Both the position numbers and the translations under genes were made by a program. A stretch of 64,000 bases of DNA from Escherichia phage vB_EcoS_ESCO30. The stretch is taken from the sequence record NC_106513.1. One strand, given 5' to 3'. The notes beneath the pieces are model-generated. The model did not search any database. It was not told the origin of the DNA and was given only the letters and a program-made list of their open reading frames with translations. Shown piece after piece: positions 29,654 through 60,081 of the stretch. Each line of letters opens with the position of its first letter. Within the stretch, counting starts at the first letter, position 1.

Positions 29654-30074
29654 TTTCTCAACAAATTAATCGCAAATACTGAAGTGGGGTGGCAACTTCC
29701 ACTTTCACGCTACACTGCCGCTTCACTATACCGCACAAATCCTTGAGGATGGCCGCTAAGCCAGATTTGCTCACCTAATGCTTCATGTACTAGCTCATAC
29801 TAGATGTAGTATACCTTACGTCATCACTTCTCAGAGTTTTTCACTCTTCCCGTCTCACTTCACAACCACCTCACACTAGGTTGCTTCGAGGCCTTACCAG
29901 GGTTCCTACGGGATGTAGATCGCTAAGTATTCTATTAATTATTTGTTTAAAAACTAACACGTAACAGTTAAAACAACCCTTAATGGGGCAGCCTAACTGT
30001 TCCGTATCGCGGATTGTAAACAAGAAAAATTAGCAAAATCAATTTTTACTAATGTCTCTCAATTCAATATAAAT

Positions 30075-30103
30075 ATTATATCAAGATTTTGAGCATCGTG
30101 CAA
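30075..30103 (-). promoter_or_regulatory. sigma70-like early promoter
   Basis: Minus strand TTGCAC-17-TATAAT. Confidence 0.45.
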
Positions 30104-30179
30104 GTAAATTTTTAAAGAGAATGCTATCATTGGTCTTGAGTACGGATAAAACCGAGCCAAAATGACTCGGTTACGTGGA

Positions 30180-30377
30180 TTAGACACTTAAAATACTTCT
30201 AATCTCTTCTATATACTTATCTACTTTTTTAGCATCTACTTTGCTTAGTTTTTCTATATCAAAATTAGGATCAGTAAACATTCTAGCTATCTCTATCTCT
30301 AGAGACTTACTAATTTTCCCTGTAGTATTCCACTTAGAAATCTTCCCTTTTATTTTCCAAAATTCCTTATTCATCAT
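30180..30377 (-). CDS. hypothetical protein
   Basis: 65 aa ORF. Confidence 0.35.
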   Translation of the reverse strand: MMNKEFWKIKGKISKWNTTGKISKSLEIEIARMFTDPNFDIEKLSKVDAKKVDKYIEEIRSILSV

Positions 30378-30759
30378 TTAATCCCGGAACATAAATCCCA
30401 ACACGATTTAATTGTTCTTTAGCTTCTGCGAGAATATCTGGAGTGTACTCCCAAATATCATTTTCCACCTGTAAAAGATGGGGCGAACAACCGTCATCAG
30501 GCACACGACATATGGCCAAACCACGTGGATGGAACAAAGAGAAATTTAGTGCAACAATTAAACCCATAGCAGACAACTCATTCCAATCCAATTCCCATTC
30601 CCTAGCGTAGCCTGATAGGAAAACACCAATACAGGGATAGTCTATTTGCTGCTTCGGAAAAGTGAAGGAAGCTTGTCTTACCCCCAACCAACGTTGTAGC
30701 AGCTTCTCCGCACGCTTCACCAAACTAGGATCAATCTGACGCCAATATACTTGTTCCAT
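30367..30759 (-). CDS. hypothetical protein (paralog A of tandem pair)
   Basis: 130 aa; shares PCIG...W.ELD.MGL..ALN..LF.P... and C-terminal G(I/Y)xxPGL with neighbour. Confidence 0.5.
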   Translation of the reverse strand: MEQVYWRQIDPSLVKRAEKLLQRWLGVRQASFTFPKQQIDYPCIGVFLSGYAREWELDWNELSAMGLIVALNFSLFHPRGLAICRVPDDGCSPHLLQVENDIWEYTPDILAEAKEQLNRVGIYVPGLNDE

Positions 30760-30768
30760 TGTGCCCCC

Positions 30769-31197
30769 TTAGGCAGTTAAACCAGGAATCTGATAACCAA
30801 AACGACGAAGTTTCTGGATACCATCATTTACCTCTTCCGGCGAGTAAGACCAACCGTAGTGTTCATTAACTTGAAAGCCCGGAGATTCACTGGTTTTATA
30901 ATTAACAACAATACGGTGTTTATTGGGCATAAATAGCTTATAGTTTAATGCAAAAACCAATCCCATTTCATCCAGCTCTTTCCATCCGACAATCTCTTCA
31001 AGACCATCCTCTACCTGCACAATTAAACCAATACAGGGAGCCTCTTCAATCTCACCTTTAAAAGCAAAGGAGATTTCATTATTCTCACACCATATTTTCA
31101 GAGCATTAATAGCCTCGTTGTACAGGTTGGCTGGAAGAGTACGCCAAAAATTAACCAATATTGGGTTAGCTTCTTTAGAAAATACATTATTGAACAT
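30769..31197 (-). CDS. hypothetical protein (paralog B of tandem pair)
   Basis: 142 aa; same motif pattern as 30367-30759. Confidence 0.5.
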   Translation of the reverse strand: MFNNVFSKEANPILVNFWRTLPANLYNEAINALKIWCENNEISFAFKGEIEEAPCIGLIVQVEDGLEEIVGWKELDEMGLVFALNYKLFMPNKHRIVVNYKTSESPGFQVNEHYGWSYSPEEVNDGIQKLRRFGYQIPGLTA

Positions 31198-31199
31198 AT

Positions 31200-31706
31200 T
31201 TACACCTTAAATTGTTGTAGGGCTTTACACATTTCAAGATCTGGACTAAATTCTAACATATAGCTAACAGCTCTTAAATCTTGAAGATTTATTCCAGTCC
31301 TACCGTTGACTATAACCGTTGGATACTGATACATCATAGCACCCGCATCATCAAGCACACACCAATGTTTGAGCTTATGCTTTTCAACGAAACGAAGAAC
31401 AGAATTACCCCTAGATAATCCACCCCCAGTAAAATCCGTTGTACCAAGAAAACGATCGATAAGACCTAATCCGGTCATAATCTGAACGTTCTCCATCTCA
31501 TTTCTGACAGAGAACCAAGATGATACTCCAACAATCATTATCGGAGAAGGACGAATAAAGTCCTGAAAAGCCTTGAGAAGCGGTTTAAAAACCCAGTCAC
31601 TTCCAAAGAAAATCTTTTCATCATCAGGTGCATGGTGATGAGAGATGCTCGAGTTGAGTACCCCATCAATATCTAGAAAAATAATTGGAGTATTACTTAT
31701 TTCCAT
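31200..31706 (-). CDS. HAD-superfamily hydrolase (possible 5'-deoxynucleotidase)
   Basis: IIFLDIDGVLN motif I of HAD phosphatases; later VLDD acidic motif. Confidence 0.55.
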   Translation of the reverse strand: MEISNTPIIFLDIDGVLNSSISHHHAPDDEKIFFGSDWVFKPLLKAFQDFIRPSPIMIVGVSSWFSVRNEMENVQIMTGLGLIDRFLGTTDFTGGGLSRGNSVLRFVEKHKLKHWCVLDDAGAMMYQYPTVIVNGRTGINLQDLRAVSYMLEFSPDLEMCKALQQFKV

Positions 31707-31875
31707 TTTTGTCCCTTTCTAAGAACGTATCATACTCAACCGTATCAACATATATGACACCATAGTCATCAGATTTATAGTCCATTTCCCATAGCTCACA
31801 TCGATAACACCAACTACCATCCGCCCATACAAATATATCATCGGGATGTGTATATACAGATTTAACTATGGACAT
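31693..31875 (-). CDS. hypothetical protein
   Basis: 60 aa ORF overlapping neighbours by a few codons (translational coupling). Confidence 0.3.
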   Translation of the reverse strand: MSIVKSVYTHPDDIFVWADGSWCYRCELWEMDYKSDDYGVIYVDTVEYDTFLERDKNGNK

Positions 31876-32698
31876 ATCTGTTTCCCCTCATCTCCGGTAC
31901 ATAAGGTCTACCCTCTAGATGGGCTTCTACACGAGCAATAAAATCAGGGTCACTGAAAGCATCTACCGCACCTTTACTCCAGTAAGGGATACCGCGTTCT
32001 TCCAACTGGTACATCTCACTACGAGTCATACCTTGATAGCCTGGTTCCGCCGCTAGGGCACTATCGTAGTAGTTAACTACCATAAGTTTCGCAGCAGTAC
32101 GATTAAGAGTAGGAAATAGTTCCCAGTAGAAGTTAATTACTTGGTTAGAGCAACCAACTACAACGATCATATCTTGACTGGTAATACCATCAAAAATATT
32201 GTACATTTCTGCGTACGCTGGAGCATGCTCACCAAAGAAGATTACATTAGGTTTAACCCATTTATAATCATCTGGGTCAATAGAGTTATACCCAACATCA
32301 ATAACTCGTTTATTACTACTATTGTAGCTGTCAGCTACAACAACCTCTTTTAAATATCCGTGAATGTGCAGAATGTCACTATGTGGAACACCAGCACGCT
32401 CAATAAGATCATCAACGTTAGTAGTCAAATTTACTACTTGACCCGGATATTTCTTATACCATTCACCAATACGCAGGTGTGCAAGATTGGGTTCAACAGT
32501 TTCTAACTCTTCACGACGTTTGTTGTAAAACGTGTGGGTTTTATGATAAAAATTACCACGAAAGGCATGAATATTACATATCTCTTCTAAGTCATAATCA
32601 TCCCACAATGCTTTACCACTAGCAGTATCAGTACGGAAGGCTCGTACACCACTTTCAACACTCAAACCTGCACCGCTAATAATAATTAATCTACGCAT
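31862..32698 (-). CDS. Sir2-like (sirtuin-family) protein lacking zinc-ribbon cysteines
   Basis: GAGLSVESGVRAFR matches sirtuin NAD-binding motif GAGxSxxSGIPxFR; catalytic HG (HIHGYL); no CxxC pairs. Confidence 0.6.
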   Translation of the reverse strand: MRRLIIISGAGLSVESGVRAFRTDTASGKALWDDYDLEEICNIHAFRGNFYHKTHTFYNKRREELETVEPNLAHLRIGEWYKKYPGQVVNLTTNVDDLIERAGVPHSDILHIHGYLKEVVVADSYNSSNKRVIDVGYNSIDPDDYKWVKPNVIFFGEHAPAYAEMYNIFDGITSQDMIVVVGCSNQVINFYWELFPTLNRTAAKLMVVNYYDSALAAEPGYQGMTRSEMYQLEERGIPYWSKGAVDAFSDPDFIARVEAHLEGRPYVPEMRGNRYVHS

Positions 32699-32912
32699 TT
32701 TTCACCTGTTCTCTGAAGTTTTTACTAAGGTTATGGAGTATATCAGATACTTCTGGATGGGCTTTCCCAACTACAGAATTAGCCATAATATCCATTATTT
32801 TTGCACAAGATTCAACCCCATCCTTATACCCAGCCTCCCACTGCTGCATCAATGCATTTTCCAGCGCAGCATTTAAGCCGTTATCGGGTAGCATCGGCTT
32901 CGAGAATGCCAT
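32691..32912 (-). CDS. hypothetical protein
   Basis: 73 aa ORF. Confidence 0.35.
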   Translation of the reverse strand: MAFSKPMLPDNGLNAALENALMQQWEAGYKDGVESCAKIMDIMANSVVGKAHPEVSDILHNLSKNFREQVKNA

Positions 32913-33084
32913 AAAGTTTCTCCTCTAGTTCCATAATACGACTTTCATAAGAAGCACGCAACTTTTCAATTGCTAGCGCACGCACCATAACCTCATTAGA
33001 GTTAATAGCTAATTGAGCTAGCTCTTCAGTTTCCATACGTCCGTTATAGATTAAGCGATATTTAAGGTGTTTTACGTTTTTCAT
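32881..33084 (-). CDS. hypothetical protein
   Basis: 67 aa ORF. Confidence 0.3.
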   Translation of the reverse strand: MKNVKHLKYRLIYNGRMETEELAQLAINSNEVMVRALAIEKLRASYESRIMELEEKLYGILEADATR

Positions 33085-33293
33085 TCTATGTCCTCAAACA
33101 ATTCAATTTCTGCATTTGCAATTAAAAGAGCTGGTTCCGATAAGCATATGCCTGATCTAGGGTCAATCTTCTCCTTATCCATCCAAGTATTTATTAAGCA
33201 AAATTTAGTAACATCTTCTCTTAGAATAGATCCATATGCTCCTGAGTCCATAACAAAATAGATACGATCTTTATCTACCTTATGAATCCTCAT
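33081..33293 (-). CDS. hypothetical protein
   Basis: 70 aa ORF directly downstream of conserved promoter/leader. Confidence 0.4.
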   Translation of the reverse strand: MRIHKVDKDRIYFVMDSGAYGSILREDVTKFCLINTWMDKEKIDPRSGICLSEPALLIANAEIELFEDIE

Positions 33294-33321
33294 ATCTTTC
33301 TCCTCTCAAATTTATAAATCT

Positions 33322-33350
33322 ATTATACATATATTTTTAGCTGAAAGCAA
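33322..33350 (-). promoter_or_regulatory. sigma70-like early promoter
   Basis: Minus strand TTGCTT-17-TATAAT plus conserved leader. Confidence 0.5.
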
Positions 33351-33392
33351 ATAAAATAAAAGCCAGGTCGACTAGCAACCTGGCTGATTATC

Positions 33393-35219
33393 TTACTTAA
33401 GATTTAAGTGTTTTACTCTACCAAGCACTTCTTTTTGTTTCCCAGAATTGAAAGGCCTACTGCCCGGGGATCCCAGGTACCCGCAAACCCTACGTGTAAC
33501 CTCTATTTCTTCAGACCCACAACTTGGACATACAAACCCACGCTCAGAGGCAATAGATTCACCCATATATCCGCAGTTGAAACACTCGTCAATCGGTATA
33601 TTAACACCGATATAATGGCTACACTCTAGTCCCTTATCTACTACGTATTCAAGAGCTTTATGGAATTTTTTCATTTGTGGTAATTCCACAAACGATATAT
33701 TACCCCCATTAGCTATTTTGGTAAAATGAGCTTCGTACTCAAATTTAGTATCTGGGGCTACCTTCTCTCTTACGTCCAAATGGTGACTATTAGTAAGATA
33801 GCCTTTGTCTGTTAACCAAGAATACTCTGGGAATCTACGTTCTAGTAATTTATTAAAACGATTACATAGAGACTCACTAGGAGTAGCGTATAAGCTAAAT
33901 CCAAGATTAGTCTCATTAGCTTTAACTTCGCAACGATTTTTTAAGTGAGTGAGAACTTCCTCTGTAAATTCAATACAGTCCCTATGAGTCTGTGGTAAAC
34001 TAAACATTATTTGGCACATCTCATAGACTCCAATATACCCAAGAGATACAGAAGATCTACCCTCAAAAATAGGCCATACATATTCTTCCCCCTCTAAACG
34101 TACACCAAAACCACCGTGCATATAAAGAATAGGGGCTTGTTTAGCCTTCACTTTCTTAAGTCTATCCAAGAAAAAATCATGAGCTTCAAAAGCCTCATCC
34201 ACATATTTGTCCAGAATATCCCAGAAATCTTCAAAAACCCCATCTGCCTCAGCAGCAACCATAGGTAGATTAATAGACACTACACCTAAATTATTGCGCC
34301 CTGCAATTTCTCCGGAGGGGATAGCAGATAAAAAGCTACGACAACCCATAGGGGCTTTAAAATCACCAGTAACAGCTACAACTTTCTCATAGCTTAAATA
34401 GTCTGGGTACATACGGGTAGCAGAACACTCAAGTGCTAGCTGTTTTATATCGTAGTTAGGATCGCCTGGATTTTTATTTAACCCTTCTTTAACTGAGAAT
34501 ACTAGTTTAGGGAAGATAGGGGTTGACTCAGCAGCACCTAAACCTTTAATACGATTTTGGAGGATGGCTTTCTGAATCATCCTTTCCTCCCACTCCTGAC
34601 CTAATCCAAAGCCAAGCGTAACAAAAGGGGTCTGCCCATTAGAGTTAAATAATGAATTAGTTTCATACTCTAGAGCTTGGAATGCATCATAACACTCTTT
34701 TTCAGTAAGCTCAGTGGCATACACAGCAGCTTTTCTTTCATCCTTGAGCCAACGTAGCCCACGACCCAGATGTTTATTGTAAGACTTTCTGACATACGGG
34801 GCTAGAACCTCGTCGATACGATCAATAGAGGTGCCACCATACTGAGCACCAGATACTTGGGCAATAATCTGAGCAGTGATTGCACATGCAGTAGTTATGG
34901 ATTTAGGAGTTTCAATATTTGCATTACCAATTTTAGTACCATTCTTCAGCATGCCACCAAGGTCTACTAAGCAACAGTTAGTGTACCCCTGCGCCCTGTA
35001 ATCCATATCATGAATGTGTATCTTACCTAGATTATGGGCGTCTAATAGATGTTTGGGTAATTCCTGCGATACTAAATACTTGTTGATTTCTCCGGCCAAT
35101 AAGTCTCTTTGAGTATGGAACATCTCACTAGGCTTATTAGCATTATTATGTTGTAAGTCTTTATCCGCAGTTAGAGTGAGCAGACCTTTGCAATTCTCAA
35201 TTAATTCATTCTCTGTCAT
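33393..35219 (-). CDS. nrdD: anaerobic ribonucleoside-triphosphate reductase (class III)
   Basis: 608 aa; C-terminal zinc site CxxC...CPxC and glycyl radical motif RVCGYLG. Confidence 0.85.
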   Translation of the reverse strand: MTENELIENCKGLLTLTADKDLQHNNANKPSEMFHTQRDLLAGEINKYLVSQELPKHLLDAHNLGKIHIHDMDYRAQGYTNCCLVDLGGMLKNGTKIGNANIETPKSITTACAITAQIIAQVSGAQYGGTSIDRIDEVLAPYVRKSYNKHLGRGLRWLKDERKAAVYATELTEKECYDAFQALEYETNSLFNSNGQTPFVTLGFGLGQEWEERMIQKAILQNRIKGLGAAESTPIFPKLVFSVKEGLNKNPGDPNYDIKQLALECSATRMYPDYLSYEKVVAVTGDFKAPMGCRSFLSAIPSGEIAGRNNLGVVSINLPMVAAEADGVFEDFWDILDKYVDEAFEAHDFFLDRLKKVKAKQAPILYMHGGFGVRLEGEEYVWPIFEGRSSVSLGYIGVYEMCQIMFSLPQTHRDCIEFTEEVLTHLKNRCEVKANETNLGFSLYATPSESLCNRFNKLLERRFPEYSWLTDKGYLTNSHHLDVREKVAPDTKFEYEAHFTKIANGGNISFVELPQMKKFHKALEYVVDKGLECSHYIGVNIPIDECFNCGYMGESIASERGFVCPSCGSEEIEVTRRVCGYLGSPGSRPFNSGKQKEVLGRVKHLNLK

Positions 35220-36111
35220 TGATTATTTCCTCGATAAACTTTATAGCTACTTTTGGTTCAATATTGAAGAATTCCGTAGCGCCGTCAAAATCTTTGTACT
35301 GGCAATTCTGCTCTTTAAAGTAGTTATGGGCTAATTTTTCTATTCGAACTGCACTACTATATTCTCCAATTTCAAATACTTTAATTATTTCCAAATCAGT
35401 AAGGTGGCTACTAGATCTAATTTGTAGAAGCCTACGCTCTGGGTTGTTAGATCTACCTATTTTAACCCCATGTGAGGGGCTATGCATAATATATATCCTA
35501 GTACTTTCTAAATCTCTATAATTACAGTAAGGACAACCGTTCCCTCTTAATACAGATCCTGGAGTAGCTTCCCACCTATGCCCTGCACCACAAAGAAAGG
35601 CGGTCTTAGTATTCGCGTTACTATACTCACCCACTATTCTGATATTTCTGGCAGCAAGACGATCATTTATAGTATTAACACTAAGTTTTTGTTTATTAGT
35701 AGCACAAGATGGGCAGCCACTACCTCTATTAATTATACTATTAAGTGTAGTAGCCCACTCATGACCACAAACACACCTAAATTTAGTATTTATATCGGCA
35801 CTATTTTTATAGCCGTTCAACAATGTAATACCTCTGTCCTGTAATACAGTATTAATTCTATCAATATCTAGTTTACGGCTACTAATAGAGCAAGTAGGAC
35901 AATTGGTCTTTCCATTCCTAATAGCGTCAAATTTAGCTGTCCATTGGTGACCGTATTCACACTGATACGTATGCCTATACCTAGAATTTTGATATGGCTT
36001 ATCCACCATAGTAAAACCACGCTCGGCTAGGCATTTATCTACTTCTTCTTGAGTTAATTTTTTCGGCATTCCACTTCTCCACAGAATTTTTACGGCATTC
36101 CACTTCTCCAC
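35206..36111 (-). CDS. T5orf172-domain protein with three zinc-ribbon repeats
   Basis: Three CxxGHxW...CPxC repeats, then ...VKIGRSNNPERRLLQIR... T5orf172-type motif; true start probably the internal Met (MPKKL). Confidence 0.6.
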   Translation of the reverse strand: MEKWNAVKILWRSGMPKKLTQEEVDKCLAERGFTMVDKPYQNSRYRHTYQCEYGHQWTAKFDAIRNGKTNCPTCSISSRKLDIDRINTVLQDRGITLLNGYKNSADINTKFRCVCGHEWATTLNSIINRGSGCPSCATNKQKLSVNTINDRLAARNIRIVGEYSNANTKTAFLCGAGHRWEATPGSVLRGNGCPYCNYRDLESTRIYIMHSPSHGVKIGRSNNPERRLLQIRSSSHLTDLEIIKVFEIGEYSSAVRIEKLAHNYFKEQNCQYKDFDGATEFFNIEPKVAIKFIEEIINDRE

Positions 36112-36123
36112 AGAATTTTTACA
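36064..36123. repeat. perfect 30-bp tandem direct repeat (2 copies)
   Basis: CGGCATTCCACTTCTCCACAGAATTTTTAC occurs twice back to back. Confidence 0.9.
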
Positions 36124-36292
36124 CCTATTATACTAAACATTATCCACTATGTCAATTAAAATTTTCTTTCGTCATCTAATACTGTAATATTTCGCATATA
36201 AATAAATGATTATCTAGTATCATATTTCTACCTTTATAAGCAAGTAAATTTTTTACTTAAAAGCAATATCATAGGTTTATTTAAAATTATAC

Positions 36293-36321
36293 TTGCTTTT
36301 TGCTGTAAACCTTGTTATAAT
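36293..36321 (+). promoter_or_regulatory. sigma70-like early promoter (TTGCTT-17-TATAAT)
   Basis: Consensus hexamers with AT-rich upstream region, upstream of phoH. Confidence 0.5.
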
Positions 36322-36397
36322 ATATTTGTAAGTTGATAAACAAGATCTCTTTGTTGATCCTCTGTTAGAAGCGAAGTACACTATAGGAGTGTTATTT

Positions 36398-37150
36398 ATG
36401 GGAAAAGCACGTCAAAAAAGAGAGAACCGCAATGGTTCAAGAAAGCGTGGCAACAAATATGAGAATAACGTAATTCAGGCTGATTTTTCTAATGATTACG
36501 CTAATCCAGTTGCTAAATCCCTAGTAGGTAAAAACCGCGAGCAAAAATCATATATCAATATGATCAAGAACAACACAGTGACTGTGGGTATTGGTGAGCC
36601 AGGTACAGGTAAAACCTTTATTCCGTCTGTTCTTGCAGCTCAGGAACTCGTAGACATTCACTCAGATATTGAGCAAGTGATCCTCGTACGTCCTAATGAA
36701 CCTCTAGGTAAGTCTCTTGGTATGCTTCCTGGTGATCTAGCGGAAAAGCTAGAGCCTTGGTTAGAGCCAATAGCTGATGGTATGAAATGGGCCATCGGTG
36801 ATCATGCCTATAAGGGATATGTCGAACGTCAGAAAATTAAATTTTTGGCTATAGAACATGCTCGTGGCAGAACTTTCAACAACTCCTATGTAATTGTCGA
36901 TGAAGCTCAGAATATTTCCGTTGAGGCAATGGTTTGTCTCCTAACTCGTGTAGGACAAGACTGCCGTTTAATTATCTGCGGAGATATAGCTCAGAAAGAC
37001 ATTAAAGGTGACTCAGGTCTAGCACTACTTATGGAAGTCTATGAGAAATACGAAAATGCCCCATTCTCAATGATCGAATTGATTGATAACGTTCGTTCTG
37101 TTGAGTCTAAAGCATTCTATGATATTTTTAAAGACATGGGGAAGGTGTAA
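36398..37150 (+). CDS. phoH: PhoH-like ATPase
   Basis: Walker A GEPGTGKTF, Walker B VIVDEAQN; start set at ATG after TAGGAG SD. Confidence 0.8.
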   Translation: MGKARQKRENRNGSRKRGNKYENNVIQADFSNDYANPVAKSLVGKNREQKSYINMIKNNTVTVGIGEPGTGKTFIPSVLAAQELVDIHSDIEQVILVRPNEPLGKSLGMLPGDLAEKLEPWLEPIADGMKWAIGDHAYKGYVERQKIKFLAIEHARGRTFNNSYVIVDEAQNISVEAMVCLLTRVGQDCRLIICGDIAQKDIKGDSGLALLMEVYEKYENAPFSMIELIDNVRSVESKAFYDIFKDMGKV

Positions 37151-37151
37151 T

Positions 37152-37349
37152 ATGGGAAACGTCGTACATCTACACCGTAAAACTAAAATACATCGTACTT
37201 CACTGAGTGCTGCTAATATGATTACACGTAAGGAAGGGGAAGAAAGTCCTAAGACTACCCTAGCGTGGAAAATTGTAACCTCAAATCCAAATCGGCCCTT
37301 CAATTATAATGAACTAAGTACCTCAATAGATATTCTGCTGAGAACTTAA
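37152..37349 (+). CDS. hypothetical protein
   Basis: Small ORF starting 1 nt after phoH stop (MGNVVHLHRK...). Confidence 0.35.
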   Translation: MGNVVHLHRKTKIHRTSLSAANMITRKEGEESPKTTLAWKIVTSNPNRPFNYNELSTSIDILLRT

Positions 37350-37494
37350 GTGGCCAAAAACTAGACTGACAACACAGAAGGCCTGGGTATGAAAATACTC
37401 GGGCCTTTTCTATCAGAAAATTTTATTTGCCAAATGACTGAGAATAAAGTAAACTATTTCCTAAATCCCGATAACCATAAAAAAGGAAAACCAA

Positions 37495-39825
37495 ATGAGC
37501 CATCGCATTGAAAAAGTAATTAAACGTGACGGTACTGTAGAAGACTTTGCTCCTGAAAAACTCAATGGTTGGGCAGAGTATGGTTGCAAAACAGTTGATG
37601 TAAGTTGGTCAGCCATTACTATGGCTGCTCAAAAAACTCTGCCTAAAGGGGTTGTAGATTCCGATACTCTGATGGATGCGTTAATTAAAGCTGCTGAAAG
37701 TCTTATCAAAGATAATCCAGCATACGACGTACCAGCAAAGGAACTACGTCTTGCGCAGATGCGTAAACGTCTTTATGATTCCTTCGAACCACCTTCTCTA
37801 CGCTTCTTCCACGATCATATGGTTAGTGTAGGTGCATGGGAAGACATGAGTGCATGGATTACCGATGAGCAGTTTGAGGCTTTGAATCAGGTTATTGACC
37901 ATGATCGCGACCGACTTTTTACTAGTGGTGGACTGAAGCAGTTCTTTGATAAGTATTCCCGTCGTAACATAGCCACTGGTGAAATTTATGAAACTCCGCA
38001 GTTTGCCTACATGGGTATGGCAATGGCGATGCTATCTCAACCTAACTGGACAATTCTAGATGCAATCGACCTCTACAACGCAATGTCACTCCACAAAATC
38101 AACGTTCCTACGCCGCCACTGGTTGGTCTGCGCTCTAGTGACCGTGGATTTGCTAGTTGTTGCCTCGTTGATTCCACTGACACATTGGATTCAATCGACA
38201 CAGCCGAGCACATCGTCTTCAAAATGGTCGCAGCCAGAGCGGGAATCGGGTATCATCTTGAAAGCCGATCAATTGCTGATCCGGTGCGAAATGGGGCATT
38301 CCCGCATTCCGGAAAACTGCCATATTATCGACACATTGACCGCTCAGTAAAGGCCAATACTCAGCAAACTCGTGGTGGTTCTGCTACAGTGTCTTATTCA
38401 TACTTTGACCCTGAAATCATTCAATTGATGCAGGTTAAGCAGCAACGTGCTACAGATGAGAATAAAATCGATAAGATGGATTATTCTCTGAGCTTCAACA
38501 ATCTTTTGTTAAAACGTTATCTGAAAAATGAAGATATTACGCTAATGTCATACTTCTATGCTCCAGAAGTTCATGAAGCGTTTTATAGTGATGACGAGGC
38601 TAAATTTGAAGAAATCTATGTGGCAGCGGAGAAACGTGTGGCATCTCTTACAAAGATCGACCACGAAGGAAAAACAGTTCCAGCAGCTCCTAAAGTCTCT
38701 GCAAAAGAAATCCTAGATACTTGGCTACGTATCCGAATGGAAACAGGACGTATGTATGCCCACCACATCGGGGAATCTAATCGTCACGGTAACTTCCTTG
38801 ATCCGATCCGTATGACAAACCTTTGTGTTGAGATTACTCAGCCTACACGCCCGTTCCATCATATCACGGAACTGTATAAAACAAAAGAACAACTTGATCA
38901 AATGAAGCCGGAGGATATTGGTGAAGTATCTCTGTGTAACTTAGGTGGTGTTGTACTTGGACGCATGGAATCTCTGGCTGAGTGGGAAAAAACTTGCTAC
39001 ATCCTTCTGAAATTCGTTGATACAATTATCGAAATTCAGGATTATCCGTTCCCAACTATGGAATATACGGCTAAGAAACGTCGTAATGTTGGTATTGGCC
39101 TAATGAACGCAGCAGGTGCAATGGCCGCAGAAGGTCTGGCTTACGAAGGTATTGAAGCCCGTAACTGGATTCACCGTGAGGCTGAAAAACTGTCCTACTT
39201 CCTGCATAAAGCCTCTGTACGCCTAGCTAAAGAACAGGGTGCATGTGAGTGGTTTGATCGTACTAAACCATCTAAAGGAATTCTGGTAATCGACACGTAC
39301 AAGAAAACTGTTGATGAACTGGTATCCGTAGGTCTAGAAATGGATTGGGAGTCTCTACGTGCAGATATTCTGAAATATGGTATGCGTAACTCTGTTCTGA
39401 CTGCTCAGATGCCGGGAGAAAGTTCTTCTGTTCTGTTAGGTGTTACTAACTCTATCGAACCACCACGTAAGATTGTATCTATCAAGGGTAGTGCAGTAAA
39501 TAAAGTAATTGCAATTGCTCCAGGTGCAACCGATTGGGAAACGTTAATGAGCTATAAACTGGCTTATGATGTAGATCGTATCGAGTGGATCAAATGGGTA
39601 GCAACTATGCAGAAATTCTTCAGTCAGTCTATCAGTACGAATATGTACTATGACTACACCAAGTTTGAGAATGAAATCATTCCTGGCCCAGTAGTAGTTC
39701 GTGATTTCATGACTGCTGTTAAGTATGGGTGGAAAACCTTCTACTACGCAAACTTCAACACCGAAAATGGTGGGGGTGCTGGAGAAGAAGCAGCCGGTTG
39801 TGCATCCGGTGGTTGTACTATTTAA
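37495..39825 (+). CDS. nrdA: ribonucleoside-diphosphate reductase large subunit (class Ia)
   Basis: 776 aa; N-terminal ATP-cone-like segment, catalytic-core motifs, C-terminal CxxGGC...redox tail. Confidence 0.85.
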   Translation: MSHRIEKVIKRDGTVEDFAPEKLNGWAEYGCKTVDVSWSAITMAAQKTLPKGVVDSDTLMDALIKAAESLIKDNPAYDVPAKELRLAQMRKRLYDSFEPPSLRFFHDHMVSVGAWEDMSAWITDEQFEALNQVIDHDRDRLFTSGGLKQFFDKYSRRNIATGEIYETPQFAYMGMAMAMLSQPNWTILDAIDLYNAMSLHKINVPTPPLVGLRSSDRGFASCCLVDSTDTLDSIDTAEHIVFKMVAARAGIGYHLESRSIADPVRNGAFPHSGKLPYYRHIDRSVKANTQQTRGGSATVSYSYFDPEIIQLMQVKQQRATDENKIDKMDYSLSFNNLLLKRYLKNEDITLMSYFYAPEVHEAFYSDDEAKFEEIYVAAEKRVASLTKIDHEGKTVPAAPKVSAKEILDTWLRIRMETGRMYAHHIGESNRHGNFLDPIRMTNLCVEITQPTRPFHHITELYKTKEQLDQMKPEDIGEVSLCNLGGVVLGRMESLAEWEKTCYILLKFVDTIIEIQDYPFPTMEYTAKKRRNVGIGLMNAAGAMAAEGLAYEGIEARNWIHREAEKLSYFLHKASVRLAKEQGACEWFDRTKPSKGILVIDTYKKTVDELVSVGLEMDWESLRADILKYGMRNSVLTAQMPGESSSVLLGVTNSIEPPRKIVSIKGSAVNKVIAIAPGATDWETLMSYKLAYDVDRIEWIKWVATMQKFFSQSISTNMYYDYTKFENEIIPGPVVVRDFMTAVKYGWKTFYYANFNTENGGGAGEEAAGCASGGCTI

Positions 39826-48198: not shown

Positions 48199-48642
48199 AT
48201 GGAAGAGAATATTTTAGATGTTTTGCGTAGAGCTTTGCAGGATTCTAAGTTTAATGGTTCTGATAAAGAAGTCGCTAAAAGCTATCAGACCATAATCGGG
48301 GATCTTCAGCGTATTGATAAAGATTTCATCACTTCTGAACAATTTGTGTCTTATCTCAAAGCTCAACTAAAAAGCATTAACCAGATGAAAGCTAAACTTC
48401 ATGGTCAAGATCTTGATAGTTATAGCTTGCAGTCCGCTCAGTATGAATACATTCTAAATAAGTGGTTGCAGGAGTATCTGCCTCCTCAGTTATCTGATAC
48501 TGAGATTCGTAAATACTTTGCAGAATTAGTTAAGCTAAACCCTGGAATTACAAAAGGTATGCTGATGAAAGCGATTAAGGAAGAATTTCCTGGGCGTTAT
48601 GATGGTGGTACTGCTGCTCAGATTGCTGGCGAATTTAATTAA
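48199..48642 (+). CDS. GatB/YqeY-domain-like protein
   Basis: 147 aa; YLPPQLSDTEI and KGMLMKA...G..DG motif pattern resembling bacterial YqeY. Confidence 0.45.
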   Translation: MEENILDVLRRALQDSKFNGSDKEVAKSYQTIIGDLQRIDKDFITSEQFVSYLKAQLKSINQMKAKLHGQDLDSYSLQSAQYEYILNKWLQEYLPPQLSDTEIRKYFAELVKLNPGITKGMLMKAIKEEFPGRYDGGTAAQIAGEFN

Positions 48643-48650
48643 AAATTTAT

Positions 48651-48679
48651 TTGCTAAATGCTTATAAATTCTGTATAAT
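48651..48679 (+). promoter_or_regulatory. sigma70-like early promoter
   Basis: TTGCTA-17-TATAAT. Confidence 0.5.
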
Positions 48680-48902
48680 ATATTCATAAATTAGAGAACA
48701 GCGAGCCGATTACGCTGAGTGCAGAATCCCAACCGGAGCGCATTGAATAGAGTCGGTGGGTTAGTTGGAAAACTAGTACACAGGGGGCGGCAATCCCGGT
48801 TAGTGGCTAGAACGTGTAAAATGAGGCGTCTGAAACCTCTCCCCTAAACTCTTCTCTAATTTACTGATAGTGGGGTGTGGAAATCACTTATGTAGTAACA
48901 CT

Positions 48903-48974
48903 GCCGATCTAGTATAAACGGTATTATCAAGCCGTAACTGGTGGAAGATGTAGGTTCGAATCCTACGGTCGGTA
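48903..48974 (+). tRNA. tRNA-like element (anticodon not assignable)
   Basis: 7-bp acceptor pairing (2 G-U) and consensus T-arm GTAGG-TTCGAAT-CCTAC; D and anticodon arms do not fold canonically. Confidence 0.3.
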
Positions 48975-49476
48975 AGAACTGGATAACTGGTGCTTTTAAC
49001 GTAAAAGCTTCCGAGGTTAGTTGCGCACTGCCTAAACCACGCGGTAGTTGGTTCCAGACTAACCAACCAGTCTGCTGAATAGTTTTATTACGATTTAACT
49101 ATGTCCAGGCATAAAGAAGAACTTTAGAAGGTATTCTAGGTAGTGAAGTTTTTCCTCCATATCGGAGTAGTTTTTCAAGCTATCCACAAAGTGGGAAATG
49201 ATGGCATGAGAGATGCCACTAATGGTGCACAATAGCACAGGTAATTCGCGATAACCCCTGTTGAGTAGCAGCAAAAAGGTGGGGAGTCATGACCCTAACC
49301 TAACCGAGTCCTCAGTATACCGCAGGACATAACCACTAAGTCACCTTGACTTAAACTGGAAAATAATAGACGTTACTGTATTTTGTCTTGAAATACTTAA
49401 TGAGTGAGACTTATGACTCTCCCGGTATCGTCTGTATTTTTAAGAGTTTTTACGAGAGTTCTTAAAAATACTTAAA

Positions 49477-49548
49477 CGGGGTGTAGTCTAAGGGAGAGGC
49501 AGGAGTCTTCTAAATTCCTTTATGCAGGTTCGAATCCTGTCACCTCGG
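49477..49548 (+). tRNA. tRNA-Arg (anticodon TCT)
   Basis: Hand-folded cloverleaf; loop CTTCTAA; T-arm GCAGG-TTCGAAT-CCTGT; encoded CCA. Confidence 0.6.
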
Positions 49549-49585
49549 CCAATTTTATTAACTGTAACTAAGACAAAGGAAATAT

Positions 49586-50533: not shown

Positions 50534-50557
50534 TACCCACATGTAATATTCGAAGTA

Positions 50558-50596
50558 AGCCCTGCGTTCCCTGGAGAGCGCAGGGCTTTTCTGTAT
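50558..50596 (+). terminator. rho-independent terminator
   Basis: GCCCTGCG-loop-CGCAGGGC hairpin followed by TTTTCTG. Confidence 0.65.
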
Positions 50597-53177: not shown

Positions 53178-53252
53178 GGTTCTCAAGCTCATATGGTATG
53201 AGCACCCGGCTCATAACCGGAAGGTACGTAGGTTCGAATCCTCGGGGAGCCA
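53178..53252 (+). tRNA. tRNA with CAT anticodon (Met or Ile-lysidine)
   Basis: Acceptor and D-arm fold well; loop CTCATAA; T-stem has mismatches. Confidence 0.45.
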
Positions 53253-59997: not shown

Positions 59998-60008
59998 CCA
60001 AACAATAA

Positions 60009-60081
60009 GCGGTTAAGCACACGGGTTGTGTCGCAGGCCTTCCAAGCCTCGCTGAGTAGGGTTCGATTCCCTCTAGCCGCT
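60009..60081 (+). tRNA. tRNA-Gly (anticodon TCC)
   Basis: Acceptor GCGGTTA/TAGCCGC; AGGC-CTTCCAA-GCCT anticodon hairpin; T-loop TTCGATT; encoded CCA. Confidence 0.5.

What the first reader, a model, noticed from the sequence alone, without database searches (positions are those of the whole stretch)
48680..49476. About 800 bp without credible ORFs, containing a tRNA-like element and a pseudoknot-capable motif
Between the promoter at 48651-48679 and tRNA-Arg there is no plus-strand ORF of 60 aa or more. The region holds a tRNA-like structure (48903-48974) with a good acceptor and T-arm but non-canonical internal arms. It also holds an interleaved inverted-repeat pair (GTTGGTT/AACCAAC and CAGACT/AGTCTG, about 49049-49078) able to form an H-type pseudoknot. 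The strongest candidate is a structured non-coding RNA or a set of degenerate tRNAs.
Basis: seen in the sequence. Interest (0 to 1): 0.5.

Follow-up and report, generated by a model that had tools for sequence, protein, structure and literature searches.

The report
Large structured phage RNA "RNAX"
The ORF-free 800 bp is the gene for RNAX, a large, intricately folded non-coding RNA of T5-like phages that GenBank already lists as a stable RNA of unknown function; its embedded tRNA look-alike is only one optional domain, and two of its loops look built to stick RNAX molecules together.

Summary
The window is a T5-like phage (Tequintavirus). Region 48680-49476 is 97% identical to the BF23 feature annotated 'rnaX, stable RNA with unknown functions', which follows promoter P16-17 and abuts tRNA-Arg. 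In detail: there is no conserved ORF, and a tRNA-like element (Rfam 36.8 bits) lies at 48903-48974. The interpretation as a structured ncRNA is supported. 'Degenerate tRNAs' and the proposed H-type pseudoknot are not.

Comparison across Demerecviridae shows a modular RNA of about 640 to 900 nt or more. Covariation is strong for a long helix that carries the tRNA-like cloverleaf at its tip. Some lineages replace the cloverleaf with a plain hairpin. Several 3' hairpins also covary, and a different pseudoknot lies in the optional 5' domain. No Rfam family matches.

Two hairpin loops stay palindromic while their sequences change between lineages. In OLE and GOLLD this signature marks symmetric intermolecular kissing loops.

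Best reading: a stand-alone, ornate, probably self-associating phage RNA at the head of the tRNA island. It resembles GOLLD/ROOL in kind but is not homologous to them. Its function is unknown.

The parts
48651..48679 (+). Strong sigma-70 early promoter (TTGCTA, 17 nt, TATAAT). It corresponds to 'promoter P16-17' of BF23.
   Evidence: The same roughly 55-bp promoter module recurs elsewhere in every T5-like locus.
48686..49476 (+). RNAX transcript. The 5' end is inferred about 7 nt after the -10 box. The BF23 annotation starts at the equivalent of 48693. The 3' end is the RNase P site of tRNA-Arg (inferred).
   Evidence: 97% identity to BF23 misc_RNA rnaX. DT57C rnaX is 636 nt. No conserved ORF. 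MFE z-score is -2.5 on the + strand and -1.3 on the - strand.
48690..48860 (+). Helix P1 (48690-48698 / 48852-48860) closing the optional 5' domain. In T5 and DT57C the same helix is capped by a short loop and the domain is absent.
   Evidence: Sequence comparison. In DU_PP_V a G-C pair becomes A-U. In KEY/AAS21 one residue is lost from each strand. These changes were read by eye and not counted statistically.
48699..48756 (+). 5' pseudoknot. S1 is 48699-48703/48713-48717. The S1 loop (48706-48711) pairs with 48751-48756 (S2). A lineage-variable hairpin lies between.
   Evidence: 98% of cells paired against 53% or less when slid. One covarying pair in S1. One covarying pair in S2 with three pair types (CG, AU, UA).
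48872..48878 (+). Invariant single-stranded motif GGGGUGU, 5' of helix P-x. Its pairing partner is unknown.
   Evidence: Invariant in alignment A1. PM135 has GGGUGUGU at this position.
48883..48991 (+). Helix P-x (48883-48896 / 48978-48991) with conserved G.G and C.C mismatches. An internal loop (AACACU / AAGA) leads to the tRNA-like domain.
   Evidence: (MAFFT alignment): 12 pairs, 99.6% paired, 7 with changes on both sides. (41 sequences including Serratia, Yersinia and Proteus phages): 9 of 12 pairs with changes on both sides.
48903..48974 (+). tRNA-like cloverleaf. Acceptor 48903-09/48967-73. D stem 48912-14/48925-27. A 3-bp stem 48931-33/48940-42 with the 6-nt loop GUAACU. T arm 48950-54/48962-66 with a canonical T loop.
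   Evidence: Called anticodons differ among relatives. Pair 1-72 is G.U or G.A. The cloverleaf is replaced by a hairpin in L027/L044/L050 and PM135.
48992..49008 (+). Hairpin stacked directly on the 3' side of P-x (GCUUUU / AAAAGC).
   Evidence: helix 6: 93.5% paired, 3 pairs with changes on both sides.
49047..49074 (+). Hairpin S1 (49047-53/49061-67) has the conserved loop CCAGACU. S2 (49055-60/49069-74) is an alternative pairing.
   Evidence: S1 changes G-C to A-U in L050 and L056, and the S2 3' strand is absent in Epseptimaviruses.: -6.6 and -6.4 kcal/mol, with connecting loops of 1, 0 and 1 nt.
49202..49218 (+). Hairpin H-a (UGGCAU / AUGCCA) with the loop GAGAG, which resembles a GNRA tetraloop.
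   Evidence: helix 1: 100% paired, 2 pairs with changes on both sides. T5 and L024 carry further compensated versions.
49237..49261 (+). Hairpin H-b (ACAGG / CCUGU). Its 15-nt loop holds the palindrome UCGCGA (49246-49251) followed by AUAAC.
   Evidence: Other lineages have CGCGCG, CUCGAG, CUGCAG, CCGCGG or GUGCGCAC at the same place, with different stems. The chance of a palindrome of 6 nt or more in a window of the same length is 0.02-0.15.
49277..49301 (+). Hairpin M1. Outer stem 49277-80/49298-301 and inner stem 49281-83/49293-95. The loop holds the palindrome GUCAUGAC (49286-49293).
   Evidence: helix 3: 3 of 4 pairs with changes on both sides. The loop is the same in all lineages, including PM135. 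Serratia phage Kamaji has GUAGCUAC in the same hairpin.
49308..49328 (+). Hairpin H-d (GUCCU / AGGAC), variable in length between lineages.
   Evidence: helix 5: 100% paired, 3 pairs with changes on both sides; 5 of 5 pairs.
49333..49359 (+). Helix CCA/UGG enclosing the invariant hairpin M2 (AGUCA CCU UGACU, 49339-49351), followed by UAAACUGGAA.
   Evidence: Always complementary but invariant, so covariation gives no information. In KEY/AAS21 M2 is replaced by a plain hairpin UUCCAAU/AUUGGAA.
49368..49433 (+). 3' multi-helix module. Closing helix 49368-72/49429-33. Hairpins 49378-83/49391-96 and 49404-08/49417-21.
   Evidence: Read from the sequence. Three lineage-specific versions keep a closing helix and a hairpin after GCUUAA using different sequences. 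These were not counted statistically.
49434..49471 (+). Terminal 13-bp hairpin 'hp'. It marks the 3' end of the unit in most lineages.
   Evidence: helix 8: 98% paired. It always ends the unit, even where a 510-nt ORF separates it from tRNA-Arg. It is not followed by a U run.
49477..49551 (+). tRNA-Arg(UCU). It is co-transcribed, and its RNase P site would release the RNAX 3' end (inferred).
50557..50588 (+). First intrinsic terminator downstream. This makes the operon promoter, RNAX, tRNA-Arg, SPFH/Band 7 gene.
   Evidence: BF23 annotates 'ter1' at this position.

Best explanation
The region is the gene for RNAX, a stand-alone, non-coding, highly structured RNA of about 790 nt. It is conserved throughout the T5-like phages (Demerecviridae).

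Shown:
- It is transcribed from its own strong host-type promoter as the first gene of the tRNA island.
- It is built of modules hung on conserved helices: an optional 5' pseudoknot domain on helix P1, a long helix P-x whose tip carries a tRNA-shaped domain, a variable middle, and a conserved 3' domain of hairpins ending in a terminal hairpin.
- The tRNA-like part cannot decode. Its loop is 6 nt, its 'anticodon' is not conserved and its ends are buried in P-x. It is an exchangeable peripheral domain.

Inferred:
- The 3' end is made by RNase P cutting at tRNA-Arg, or by an intrinsic terminator in Serratia phage Kamaji.
- The RNA acts as an RNA-only or RNA-scaffold particle that binds copies of itself. 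The contacts would be two symmetric kissing loops, the H-b and M1 loops. This would give dimers or larger closed assemblies like those of OLE, ROOL and GOLLD.
- The biological role is probably linked to phage tRNA or translation takeover, given its fixed place at the head of the tRNA island. The role is not known.

Probabilities: non-coding structured RNA gene about 0.95; self-association through the palindromic loops about 0.45.
For: - Identity: 97% to BF23 'rnaX, stable RNA with unknown functions', with the same promoter and the same junction to tRNA-Arg. The same feature is annotated in DT57C.
- Non-coding: no plus-strand ORF longer than 45 aa. All small ORFs are broken in relatives.
- Structure, block B: 38 pairs, 84% paired against 48% or less when slid, and 19 pairs with changes on both sides on a plain MAFFT alignment. 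On the model-guided alignment of 41 sequences, 94% paired and 28 of 36 pairs with changes on both sides.
- Structure, 3' domain: 44 pairs, 98.9% paired, 10 pairs with changes on both sides against 3 or fewer when slid.
- Structure, 5' pseudoknot.
- Independent gene: the Kamaji homologue has its own promoter and a terminator with a long T run, followed by a new promoter. In Epseptimaviruses an ORF sits between hp and tRNA-Arg.
- Breadth: found in Tequintavirus, Epseptimavirus, Sugarlandvirus, Hongcheonvirus and Novosibvirus, and in Erwinia, Pantoea, Serratia and Yersinia phages.
- Self-association: the H-b loop is palindromic in 6 of 9 lineages with 5-6 different sequences. The M1 loop is an 8-nt palindrome in all, changing from GUCAUGAC to GUAGCUAC in Kamaji. 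The same palindrome-to-palindrome switching supported symmetric kissing loops in OLE and GOLLD (PMC12286853).
- Like GOLLD, RNAX is phage-encoded, lies at a tRNA island, has a variable 5' and conserved 3' part, and carries an embedded tRNA-like unit.
Against: - No experiment was seen. 'Stable RNA' rests on a GenBank note only, and no paper in the searchable library mentions RNAX.
- Oligomerisation is inferred from sequence alone.
- H-b has only a 4-nt palindrome (CGCG) in the L024/Eos/KEY type. It has none of 6 nt in PM135 or DU_PP_V.
- The M1 switch rests on one lineage.
- Palindromes could reflect a constraint at DNA level.
- No terminator separates RNAX from tRNA-Arg and the SPFH gene in this window, so a leader role is not excluded.
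- The sequences are related and mosaic. Cells counted are therefore not independent events, and alignment A2 was fitted to the model.
- The middle region and the long-range contacts were not solved.
Confidence: 0.7

Rival explanations
1. tRNA-mimic decoy. RNAX works mainly through its tRNA-shaped domain. It would soak up or redirect a host factor that recognises the tRNA elbow, such as RNase P, a tRNA-modifying enzyme, the CCA-adding enzyme or a tRNA-targeting defence nuclease. This would complement the phage's own tRNA set.
For: - The T arm and T loop and the D-loop GG are kept in most lineages.
- RNAX sits at the head of the tRNA island.
- T5 tRNAs are known to counter tRNA-cleaving defences (PMC11464382; PMC10644984).
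- A weak YqeY-like protein (25.4 bits, below the cut-off) is encoded just upstream.
Against: - The cloverleaf is replaced by a plain hairpin in one Epseptimavirus group and in Proteus phage PM135. One metagenomic relative lacks its D arm.
- The anticodon loop, the usual target of defence nucleases, is degenerate and not conserved.
- The most conserved parts of RNAX lie outside the cloverleaf.
Confidence: 0.12
2. Processed leader or spacer. The stretch is only the long 5' leader of the tRNA-Arg / SPFH operon. Its hairpins serve transcript stability, processing or regulation in cis. It has no function as a free RNA.
For: There is one promoter at 48651-48679 and no terminator until 50557-50588. 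RNAX abuts tRNA-Arg.
Against: - In Kamaji the unit has its own terminator and there is no adjacent tRNA-Arg.
- In many Epseptimaviruses an ORF is inserted between hp and tRNA-Arg without disturbing the unit.
- About 100 covariation-supported or complementary base pairs, and invariant loops kept across subfamilies, are far more than leaders carry.
- GenBank annotators call it a stable RNA.
Confidence: 0.08
3. Genomic debris. The region would be decayed tRNA genes plus scars and target sites of the homing endonucleases that crowd the T5 tRNA region, conserved only through recent common ancestry.
For: Homing-endonuclease-like ORFs are inserted on both sides of the unit in relatives. The unit is mosaic. 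T5 carries an 82-nt insertion flanked by a direct repeat.
Against: - Compensatory changes keep the helices paired across subfamilies that share under 70% sequence identity.
- Only one tRNA-like unit is detected by ARAGORN and by Rfam at E up to 10.
- Loops and junctions are invariant while stems vary.
Confidence: 0.04
4. Small-protein genes. One or more of the short ORFs annotated in some genomes (for example 48719-48847 or 48941-49078) would encode micro-proteins.
For: Several GenBank records annotate hypothetical proteins here.
Against: - The ORFs start with GTG or TTG and overlap the cloverleaf.
- Relatives interrupt them with stops or frameshifts.
- One lies in a domain that T5 lacks entirely.
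Confidence: 0.02
5. DNA-level element. The palindromes and hairpins would act in the DNA, as a replication origin, a nick site or a protein operator, rather than in RNA.
For: The conserved palindromes are 6-8 bp, typical of sites for dimeric DNA-binding proteins. T5 DNA carries site-specific nicks, and BF23 annotates one about 1 kb downstream.
Against: - G.U pairs and strand-specific covariation fit RNA, not DNA.
- The palindromes sit in loops of covarying RNA hairpins.
- A strong promoter reads through the whole unit.
Confidence: 0.04

Closest known systems
rnaX / RNAX of phages BF23 (AJ604530) and DT57C (NC_027356), GenBank misc_RNA 'stable RNA with unknown functions'
   Same: The same locus. 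It is 97% identical to BF23, has the same promoter (P16-17) and the same junction with tRNA-Arg(UCU). This window's element is an ortholog.
   Different: The annotation gives only coordinates and a note. No structure, family model or function was found in Rfam or in the searchable literature. The domain map, the distribution across Demerecviridae and the palindromic loops are worked out here.
GOLLD RNA (large ornate phage/prophage RNA; forms a 14-mer nanocage)
   Same: Phage-encoded, often over 800 nt, next to tRNA islands, with a conserved 3' region and a variable 5' region. tRNAs are sometimes embedded. Symmetric kissing loops switch between palindromes (PMC12286853). RNAX shares each of these descriptive traits.
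   Different: No sequence or structure match to the Rfam model, even at E up to 10. In RNAX the tRNA-like unit caps a conserved helix rather than lying in a disordered linker. Oligomerisation of RNAX is untested.
ROOL RNA (large ornate phage RNA; forms an octameric nanocage)
   Same: About 600 nt, found in phages and prophages near tRNA islands, contains pseudoknots, has no known protein partner and is abundant (PMC12286853).
   Different: No Rfam match. ROOL hosts are mainly Firmicutes and rumen organisms. RNAX is found in lytic phages of Enterobacterales.
OLE RNA (forms a dimer through symmetric contacts)
   Same: A loop palindrome that changes while staying palindromic (GGCC, GAUC, AGCU) marks a symmetric kissing loop. 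RNAX M1 changes CAUG to AGCU and H-b behaves the same way.
   Different: OLE is a bacterial, membrane-associated ribonucleoprotein with known protein partners. It is unrelated in sequence and context.
Embedded tRNA-like structures (tmRNA, MALAT1 mascRNA, plant-virus 3' tRNA-like structures, bacterial YrlA Y RNA)
   Same: A cloverleaf or L-shape mimic with a good T arm inside a larger RNA, without a decoding function.
   Different: ARAGORN and Rfam find no tmRNA or YrlA here. From my own knowledge, YrlA opens at the anticodon stem. RNAX opens at the acceptor stem, which continues into helix P-x. No terminal CCA context is present.
Phage T4 stable RNAs 'species 1 and 2' (rnaC, rnaD) in the T4 tRNA cluster
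   Same: Stable phage RNAs of unknown function encoded within a tRNA gene cluster (from my own knowledge, not tested here).
   Different: The T4 RNAs are only about 120-140 nt. No homology was tested or expected.

Membership tests
RNAX (rnaX of BF23/DT57C) | Sequence identity and the same genomic position: after promoter P16-17 and abutting tRNA-Arg(UCU). | tested here: met
   100% coverage at 97.0% identity to AJ604530 rnaX. Feature table. DT57C.
RNAX (rnaX of BF23/DT57C) | Accumulates as a stable RNA in infected cells. | not testable with these tools
   Only the GenBank note supports this. No paper was found.
tRNA (Rfam RF00005) | Cloverleaf with acceptor stem, T arm and T loop scoring above the gathering threshold. 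| tested here: met
   36.8 bits against 29. The T arm is 97.9% paired with 4 covarying pairs.
tRNA (Rfam RF00005) | A 5-bp anticodon stem with a 7-nt loop, and an anticodon conserved among orthologs. | tested here: not met
   The stem is 3 bp with the 6-nt loop GUAACU. The Rfam alignment skips the arm. ARAGORN calls ACU, UCA, UGG, UAG or 'none' in orthologs. Klebsiella phages carry a 20-nt insertion there.
tRNA (Rfam RF00005) | Free, processable ends with a paired 1-72 position. | tested here: not met
   Position 1-72 is G.U in 22 sequences and unpaired (G.A) in 19. Both flanks are locked in the covarying helix P-x. Actual processing cannot be tested here.
GOLLD RNA | Match to the family covariance model (conserved 3' domain). 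| tested here: not met
   No hit at E up to 1 over 20 kb, or at E up to 10 on the region alone.
GOLLD RNA | Phage-encoded, over 600 nt, at a tRNA island, with a variable 5' and conserved 3' part. | tested here: met
   compared with the description in PMC12286853. These are resemblances in kind and do not define membership.
GOLLD / ROOL / OLE kind (homo-oligomeric ornate RNAs) | Forms a defined homo-oligomer. | not testable with these tools
   Only indirect evidence: palindromic loops that stay palindromic across lineages.
ROOL RNA | Match to the family covariance model. | tested here: not met
   No hit.
   S1 is kept, with a compensatory G-C to A-U change. The S2 3' strand is replaced by unrelated sequence in six Epseptimavirus variants.
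   The loops are 1, 0 and 1 nt. By established pseudoknot geometry, a 1-nt loop cannot span a 7-bp stem.
tmRNA / YrlA Y RNA | Match to ARAGORN tmRNA or to the Rfam models. | tested here: not met
   None reported.
Protein-coding gene | An ORF kept open in orthologs. | tested here: not met
   Stops, frameshifts or deletions affect every candidate.

The most novel reading that the evidence does not exclude
RNAX would be a third, independently evolved class of self-assembling 'ornate' phage RNA. Two symmetric kissing loops per chain (UCGCGA and GUCAUGAC) would build dimers, rings or a closed cage during T5 infection. The tRNA-shaped tip or the neighbouring phage tRNAs could serve as cargo or docking sites. 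Because it occurs in a classical, genetically tractable E. coli phage, the function of such RNA assemblies would become directly testable.
Probability: 0.3. Interest if true: 0.85.

Novelty: new member of a known kind. Interest (0 to 1): 0.62.

Why it matters
Large ornate RNAs of phages (GOLLD, ROOL) were recently shown to form RNA-only nanocages. Their function is unknown, and they occur mostly in organisms that are hard to manipulate. RNAX shares their descriptive traits: phage origin, position at a tRNA island, large size, a variable 5' and conserved 3' part, an embedded tRNA-like unit, and palindromic loops that stay palindromic. It sits in T5 and BF23, textbook coliphages with good genetics, defined deletion collections and known interactions with tRNA-targeting defences.

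If RNAX self-assembles, the question of what these RNA particles are for becomes an ordinary E. coli experiment.

There is also a practical point. Hundreds of T5-like genomes mis-annotate this region as hypothetical proteins or as tRNA-Ser, tRNA-Sec or tRNA-Pro. A covariance model would correct those annotations.

Tried and rejected
- Rfam at permissive thresholds, on 20 kb and on the region alone. Only tRNA hits appeared. The weak SpF41, Hrs13 and mir-3167 hits are far below their gathering scores and were rejected.
- Literature searches for RNAX, T5 stable RNAs and T5 ncRNA. Nothing described this RNA. The 2023 BF23 genome paper does not mention it.
- Pattern scans of IMG/VR and metagenomes with the block-B motif. 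They returned almost only known T5-like isolates plus chance hits.
- Model R1 searched in 72 unrelated phage contigs that encode the neighbouring SleB hydrolase. Only ordinary tRNAs matched, so the family seems confined to Demerecviridae as sampled.
- An automatic all-against-all search for covarying columns. It was too noisy because of G.U pairs and mosaic misalignment, and was used only as a pointer.
- A small hairpin within GGGGUGUSGAA...CAC, and a pairing of GGGGU with the H-b loop. Both were inconsistent across lineages and were dropped.
- Pairing between the M1 loop and M2. Rejected because M2 is missing in KEY/AAS21 and Kamaji while M1 is kept.
- GUGCAC (49226-49231) as a third palindromic contact. 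Rejected because it is GUGCCC in Epseptimaviruses.
- The middle region 49009-49190 and the closing helix of the 3' module. Three or more lineage-specific versions prevented a common alignment, so no statistics are given.
Full report
**What the window is**

Megablast places the region in T5-like phages (Tequintavirus). The best identities are 98.7% to chee24 and IrisVonRoten. In all, 442 records match, almost all of them Escherichia or Salmonella T5-like phages. ARAGORN finds 22 tRNA genes downstream in the window, so the finding lies at the head of the T5 tRNA island.

**Checking the observation**

- The promoter TTGCTA-17-TATAAT is at 48651-48679.
- tRNA-Arg(UCU) is at 49477-49551.
- The plus-strand ORFs between them are 42, 45, 30 and 25 aa, and the minus strand has 60 and 59 aa ORFs. 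In relatives every one is interrupted by stops or frameshifts, or lies in a segment that T5 lacks. The region is non-coding.
- The tRNA-like element is real. ARAGORN calls 'tRNA-Ser(ACU)' at 48902-48975 and Rfam tRNA scores 36.8 bits at 48903-48974.
- The Rfam alignment succeeds only by skipping the anticodon arm.
- No other Rfam family matches, even at E up to 10.

**What it is called**

A sensitive BLAST finds 523 phage records with similarity. Two carry an explicit annotation over this stretch: BF23 (AJ604530) and DT57C (NC_027356) list 'rnaX: RNAX, stable RNA with unknown functions'.

- In BF23 the feature is 784 nt. It follows 'promoter P16-17' and ends exactly where tRNA-Arg begins. Its start corresponds to window 48693.
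- In DT57C it is 636 nt.
- Other genomes annotate the same DNA as hypothetical proteins or as tRNA-Ser, tRNA-Sec, tRNA-Pro or tRNA-OTHER.
- I found no paper describing RNAX. The 2023 BF23 genome paper does not mention it.

**The unit and its modules**

Block-wise comparison shows a mosaic of very conserved motifs and variable stems.

- The unit always runs from the promoter to a 13-bp terminal hairpin (hp, 49434-49471). In many Epseptimaviruses a 510-nt ORF lies between hp and tRNA-Arg, and an HNH endonuclease gene lies between the promoter and the core. The unit itself stays intact.
- In Serratia phage Kamaji the homologue has its own promoter and an intrinsic terminator with a long T run, followed by a fresh promoter for the next gene. 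It is therefore an independent gene. In this window no terminator occurs before 50557-50588, so RNAX, tRNA-Arg and the SPFH gene are co-transcribed.
- The 5' domain (48699-48851) is absent from T5 and DT57C. It is an insertion at the tip of helix P1 (48690-98/48852-60), which T5 simply caps with a short loop.

**The tRNA-like element in context**

The flanks of the cloverleaf are more conserved than the cloverleaf itself. They form a 12-pair helix, P-x (48883-96/48978-91), with conserved G.G and C.C mismatches.

- On a plain MAFFT alignment of 38 distinct sequences, P-x is 99.6% paired and 7 of 12 pairs change on both sides. The whole block has 19 such pairs. Shifted controls give 9-11 or fewer, and their pairing falls to 32-48%.
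- A covariance model of this block (R1) found full-length homologues in Serratia (122.6 bits), Yersinia (110 bits), Pectobacterium (110 bits) and Proteus (61 bits) phages.
- On the 41-sequence model-guided alignment, 94.3% of cells pair and 28 of 36 pairs change on both sides. Shifted controls give 9 or fewer. This alignment is fitted to the model and so leans towards it.
- Within the cloverleaf, the T arm and D stem covary. The 'anticodon' stem has 3 pairs with the 6-nt loop GUAACU. Pair 1-72 is G.U or G.A. Most sequences have a U.U mismatch in the acceptor stem.
- The called anticodon differs between orthologs. Klebsiella phages insert a covarying hairpin into that loop.
- One Epseptimavirus group and Proteus phage PM135 replace the whole cloverleaf with a short hairpin while keeping P-x.

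The element is therefore a tRNA-shaped peripheral domain of a larger RNA. It is neither a decoding tRNA nor a decayed tRNA gene.

**The other helices**

- In the 3' domain, 44 proposed pairs are 98.9% paired. Ten change on both sides, against 0-3 in shifted controls. Hairpins H-a, M1 (outer stem) and H-d carry the covariation. H-b, CCA/UGG and M2 are invariant and so give no information within that set.
- The 5' domain has a pseudoknot. Hairpin 48699-703/48713-17 pairs through its loop (48706-11) with 48751-56. It is 98% paired against 53% or less in controls, with one covarying pair in each stem. This is moderate support.
Stem 1 (49047-53/49061-67) is a genuine hairpin with one compensatory change. 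The 3' strand of stem 2 is not conserved, and the 1-, 0- and 1-nt connectors make coexistence impossible.
- The single-sequence fold is modestly more stable than shuffles on the + strand (z = -2.5) and less so on the - strand (z = -1.3).

**Palindromic loops**

Two hairpin loops hold self-complementary sequences that change between lineages yet remain self-complementary.

- H-b (loop 49242-56) carries a different sequence in each lineage:

| Lineage | H-b loop sequence |
|---|---|
| This window | UCGCGA |
| T5 | CGCGCG |
| L056/L027 type (different stem) | CUCGAG |
| Kamaji (different stem) | CUGCAG |
| Klebsiella phages | CCGCGG |
| phiR2-01/S126 type | GUGCGCAC |
| L024/Eos/KEY type | CGCG only |
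| PM135 and DU_PP_V | no palindrome of 6 nt or more |

- M1 (loop 49284-92) has GUCAUGAC in every lineage including PM135. Kamaji has GUAGCUAC in the same hairpin, a four-base change from one palindrome to another.
- A window of the same length taken at random from the same RNA holds a palindrome of 6 nt or more with probability 0.02-0.15.
- A 6-nt palindrome cannot pair within its own loop. The natural reading is pairing between two copies of the RNA.
- This signature was used to support the symmetric kissing loops seen by cryo-EM in OLE and GOLLD: a loop tetranucleotide switching among GGCC, GAUC and AGCU, and GC to CG (PMC12286853).

**Comparison with known RNAs**

GOLLD and ROOL are large phage or prophage RNAs 'often near tRNA islands'. 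GOLLD has a conserved 3' and a variable 5' region and sometimes carries tRNAs in its linker. Both form RNA-only cages, and their function is unknown (PMC12286853). RNAX resembles them in all these descriptive traits. It does not match their covariance models, so it is not a member of either family.

RNAX lies outside the T5 deletions reported to remove tRNA genes. Those span 29191-38625, while RNAX maps to about 40.85-41.6 kb of the 121,750-bp T5 contig. I assumed the two coordinate systems agree.

**Verdict**

The finding is a real, conserved, structured non-coding RNA gene. It is already annotated as rnaX in two records but otherwise uncharacterised. The structured-RNA reading is supported. 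The degenerate-tRNA and pseudoknot details are not. How it works is unknown.

The best-supported mechanistic inference is self-association through two symmetric kissing loops (about 0.45). Rival readings are a tRNA-mimic decoy, a cis-acting leader, genomic debris, micro-proteins and a DNA-level element. The report gives evidence and refutation tests for each.

Noticed in passing
window 53178-53252: Rfam calls a tRNA (40.3 bits) that ARAGORN did not report in this window. The equivalent gene in DT57C is annotated tRNA-Ile(CAU), and ARAGORN calls it tRNA-Met(CAU) in relatives.
   Followed up: partly
window 60008-60081: A weak tRNA-Sec-like Rfam hit (30.9 bits against a gathering score of 47) directly after tRNA-Gln(UUG). 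ARAGORN does not call it. It may be another degenerate or unusual tRNA.
   Followed up: no
window 48643-48697, and several places in every T5-like locus: The promoter belongs to a family of roughly 55-bp modules at 78-88% identity. The conserved part includes about 18 nt of A/T-rich sequence downstream of the -10 box. The module recurs before several neighbouring genes.
   Followed up: partly
L013 (phage T5) 2665-2790; also L121: T5 carries an insertion of about 82 nt in the 3' domain. It is flanked by a direct repeat of AGUCACCUUGAC(U/A)UAAACUGGAA (the M2 hairpin and its 3' flank), and looks like a small duplicative insertion.
   Followed up: no
L049 1016-1495 and 2082-2591; L175 1022-1504; L178 1522-2004; L050 2292-2801: ORFs of about 480 and 510 nt sit exactly at the two borders of the RNAX unit in Epseptimaviruses: after the promoter, and between hp and tRNA-Arg. 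The 480-483-nt ORFs in L175 and L178 are annotated as HNH or homing endonucleases. The 510-nt ORFs are annotated only as hypothetical proteins. The highly conserved hp sequence may double as an endonuclease target.
   Followed up: partly
L170 (metagenome contig OLXE01000031.1) 713-852: An otherwise typical Tequintavirus RNAX has a 10-nt deletion that removes the D arm of the tRNA-like domain. This natural variant argues that an intact cloverleaf is not required.
   Followed up: no
window 48199-48642: The ORF just upstream of RNAX is annotated variously as 'recombination-related exonuclease', 'tRNA amidotransferase' or 'YqeY-like'. Pfam gives only a sub-threshold YqeY match (25.4 bits against 27). 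YqeY/GatB-tail domains are tRNA-associated, so it could be a partner of RNAX.
   Followed up: partly
window 48983-48988 and 49250-49255: The motif GAUAAC occurs twice in conserved positions: in the 3' strand of P-x, and right after the H-b palindrome. It recurs in the same positions in distant relatives (Kamaji, PM135). Its meaning is unknown.
   Followed up: no
L182 (Proteus phage PM135) 5657-6460: In PM135 the M1-type hairpin with the GUCAUGAC loop lies upstream of block B instead of downstream. The RNA appears rearranged or permuted in this genus. About 2 kb here is unannotated in the record.
   Followed up: partly
L181 (Serratia phage Kamaji) 4347-4715: A minus-strand 'hypothetical protein' is annotated on top of the RNAX homologue and is probably spurious. 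Similar spurious CDS calls cover RNAX in IrisVonRoten (bas32_0077-0079), VAC35 and Roth37.
   Followed up: partly
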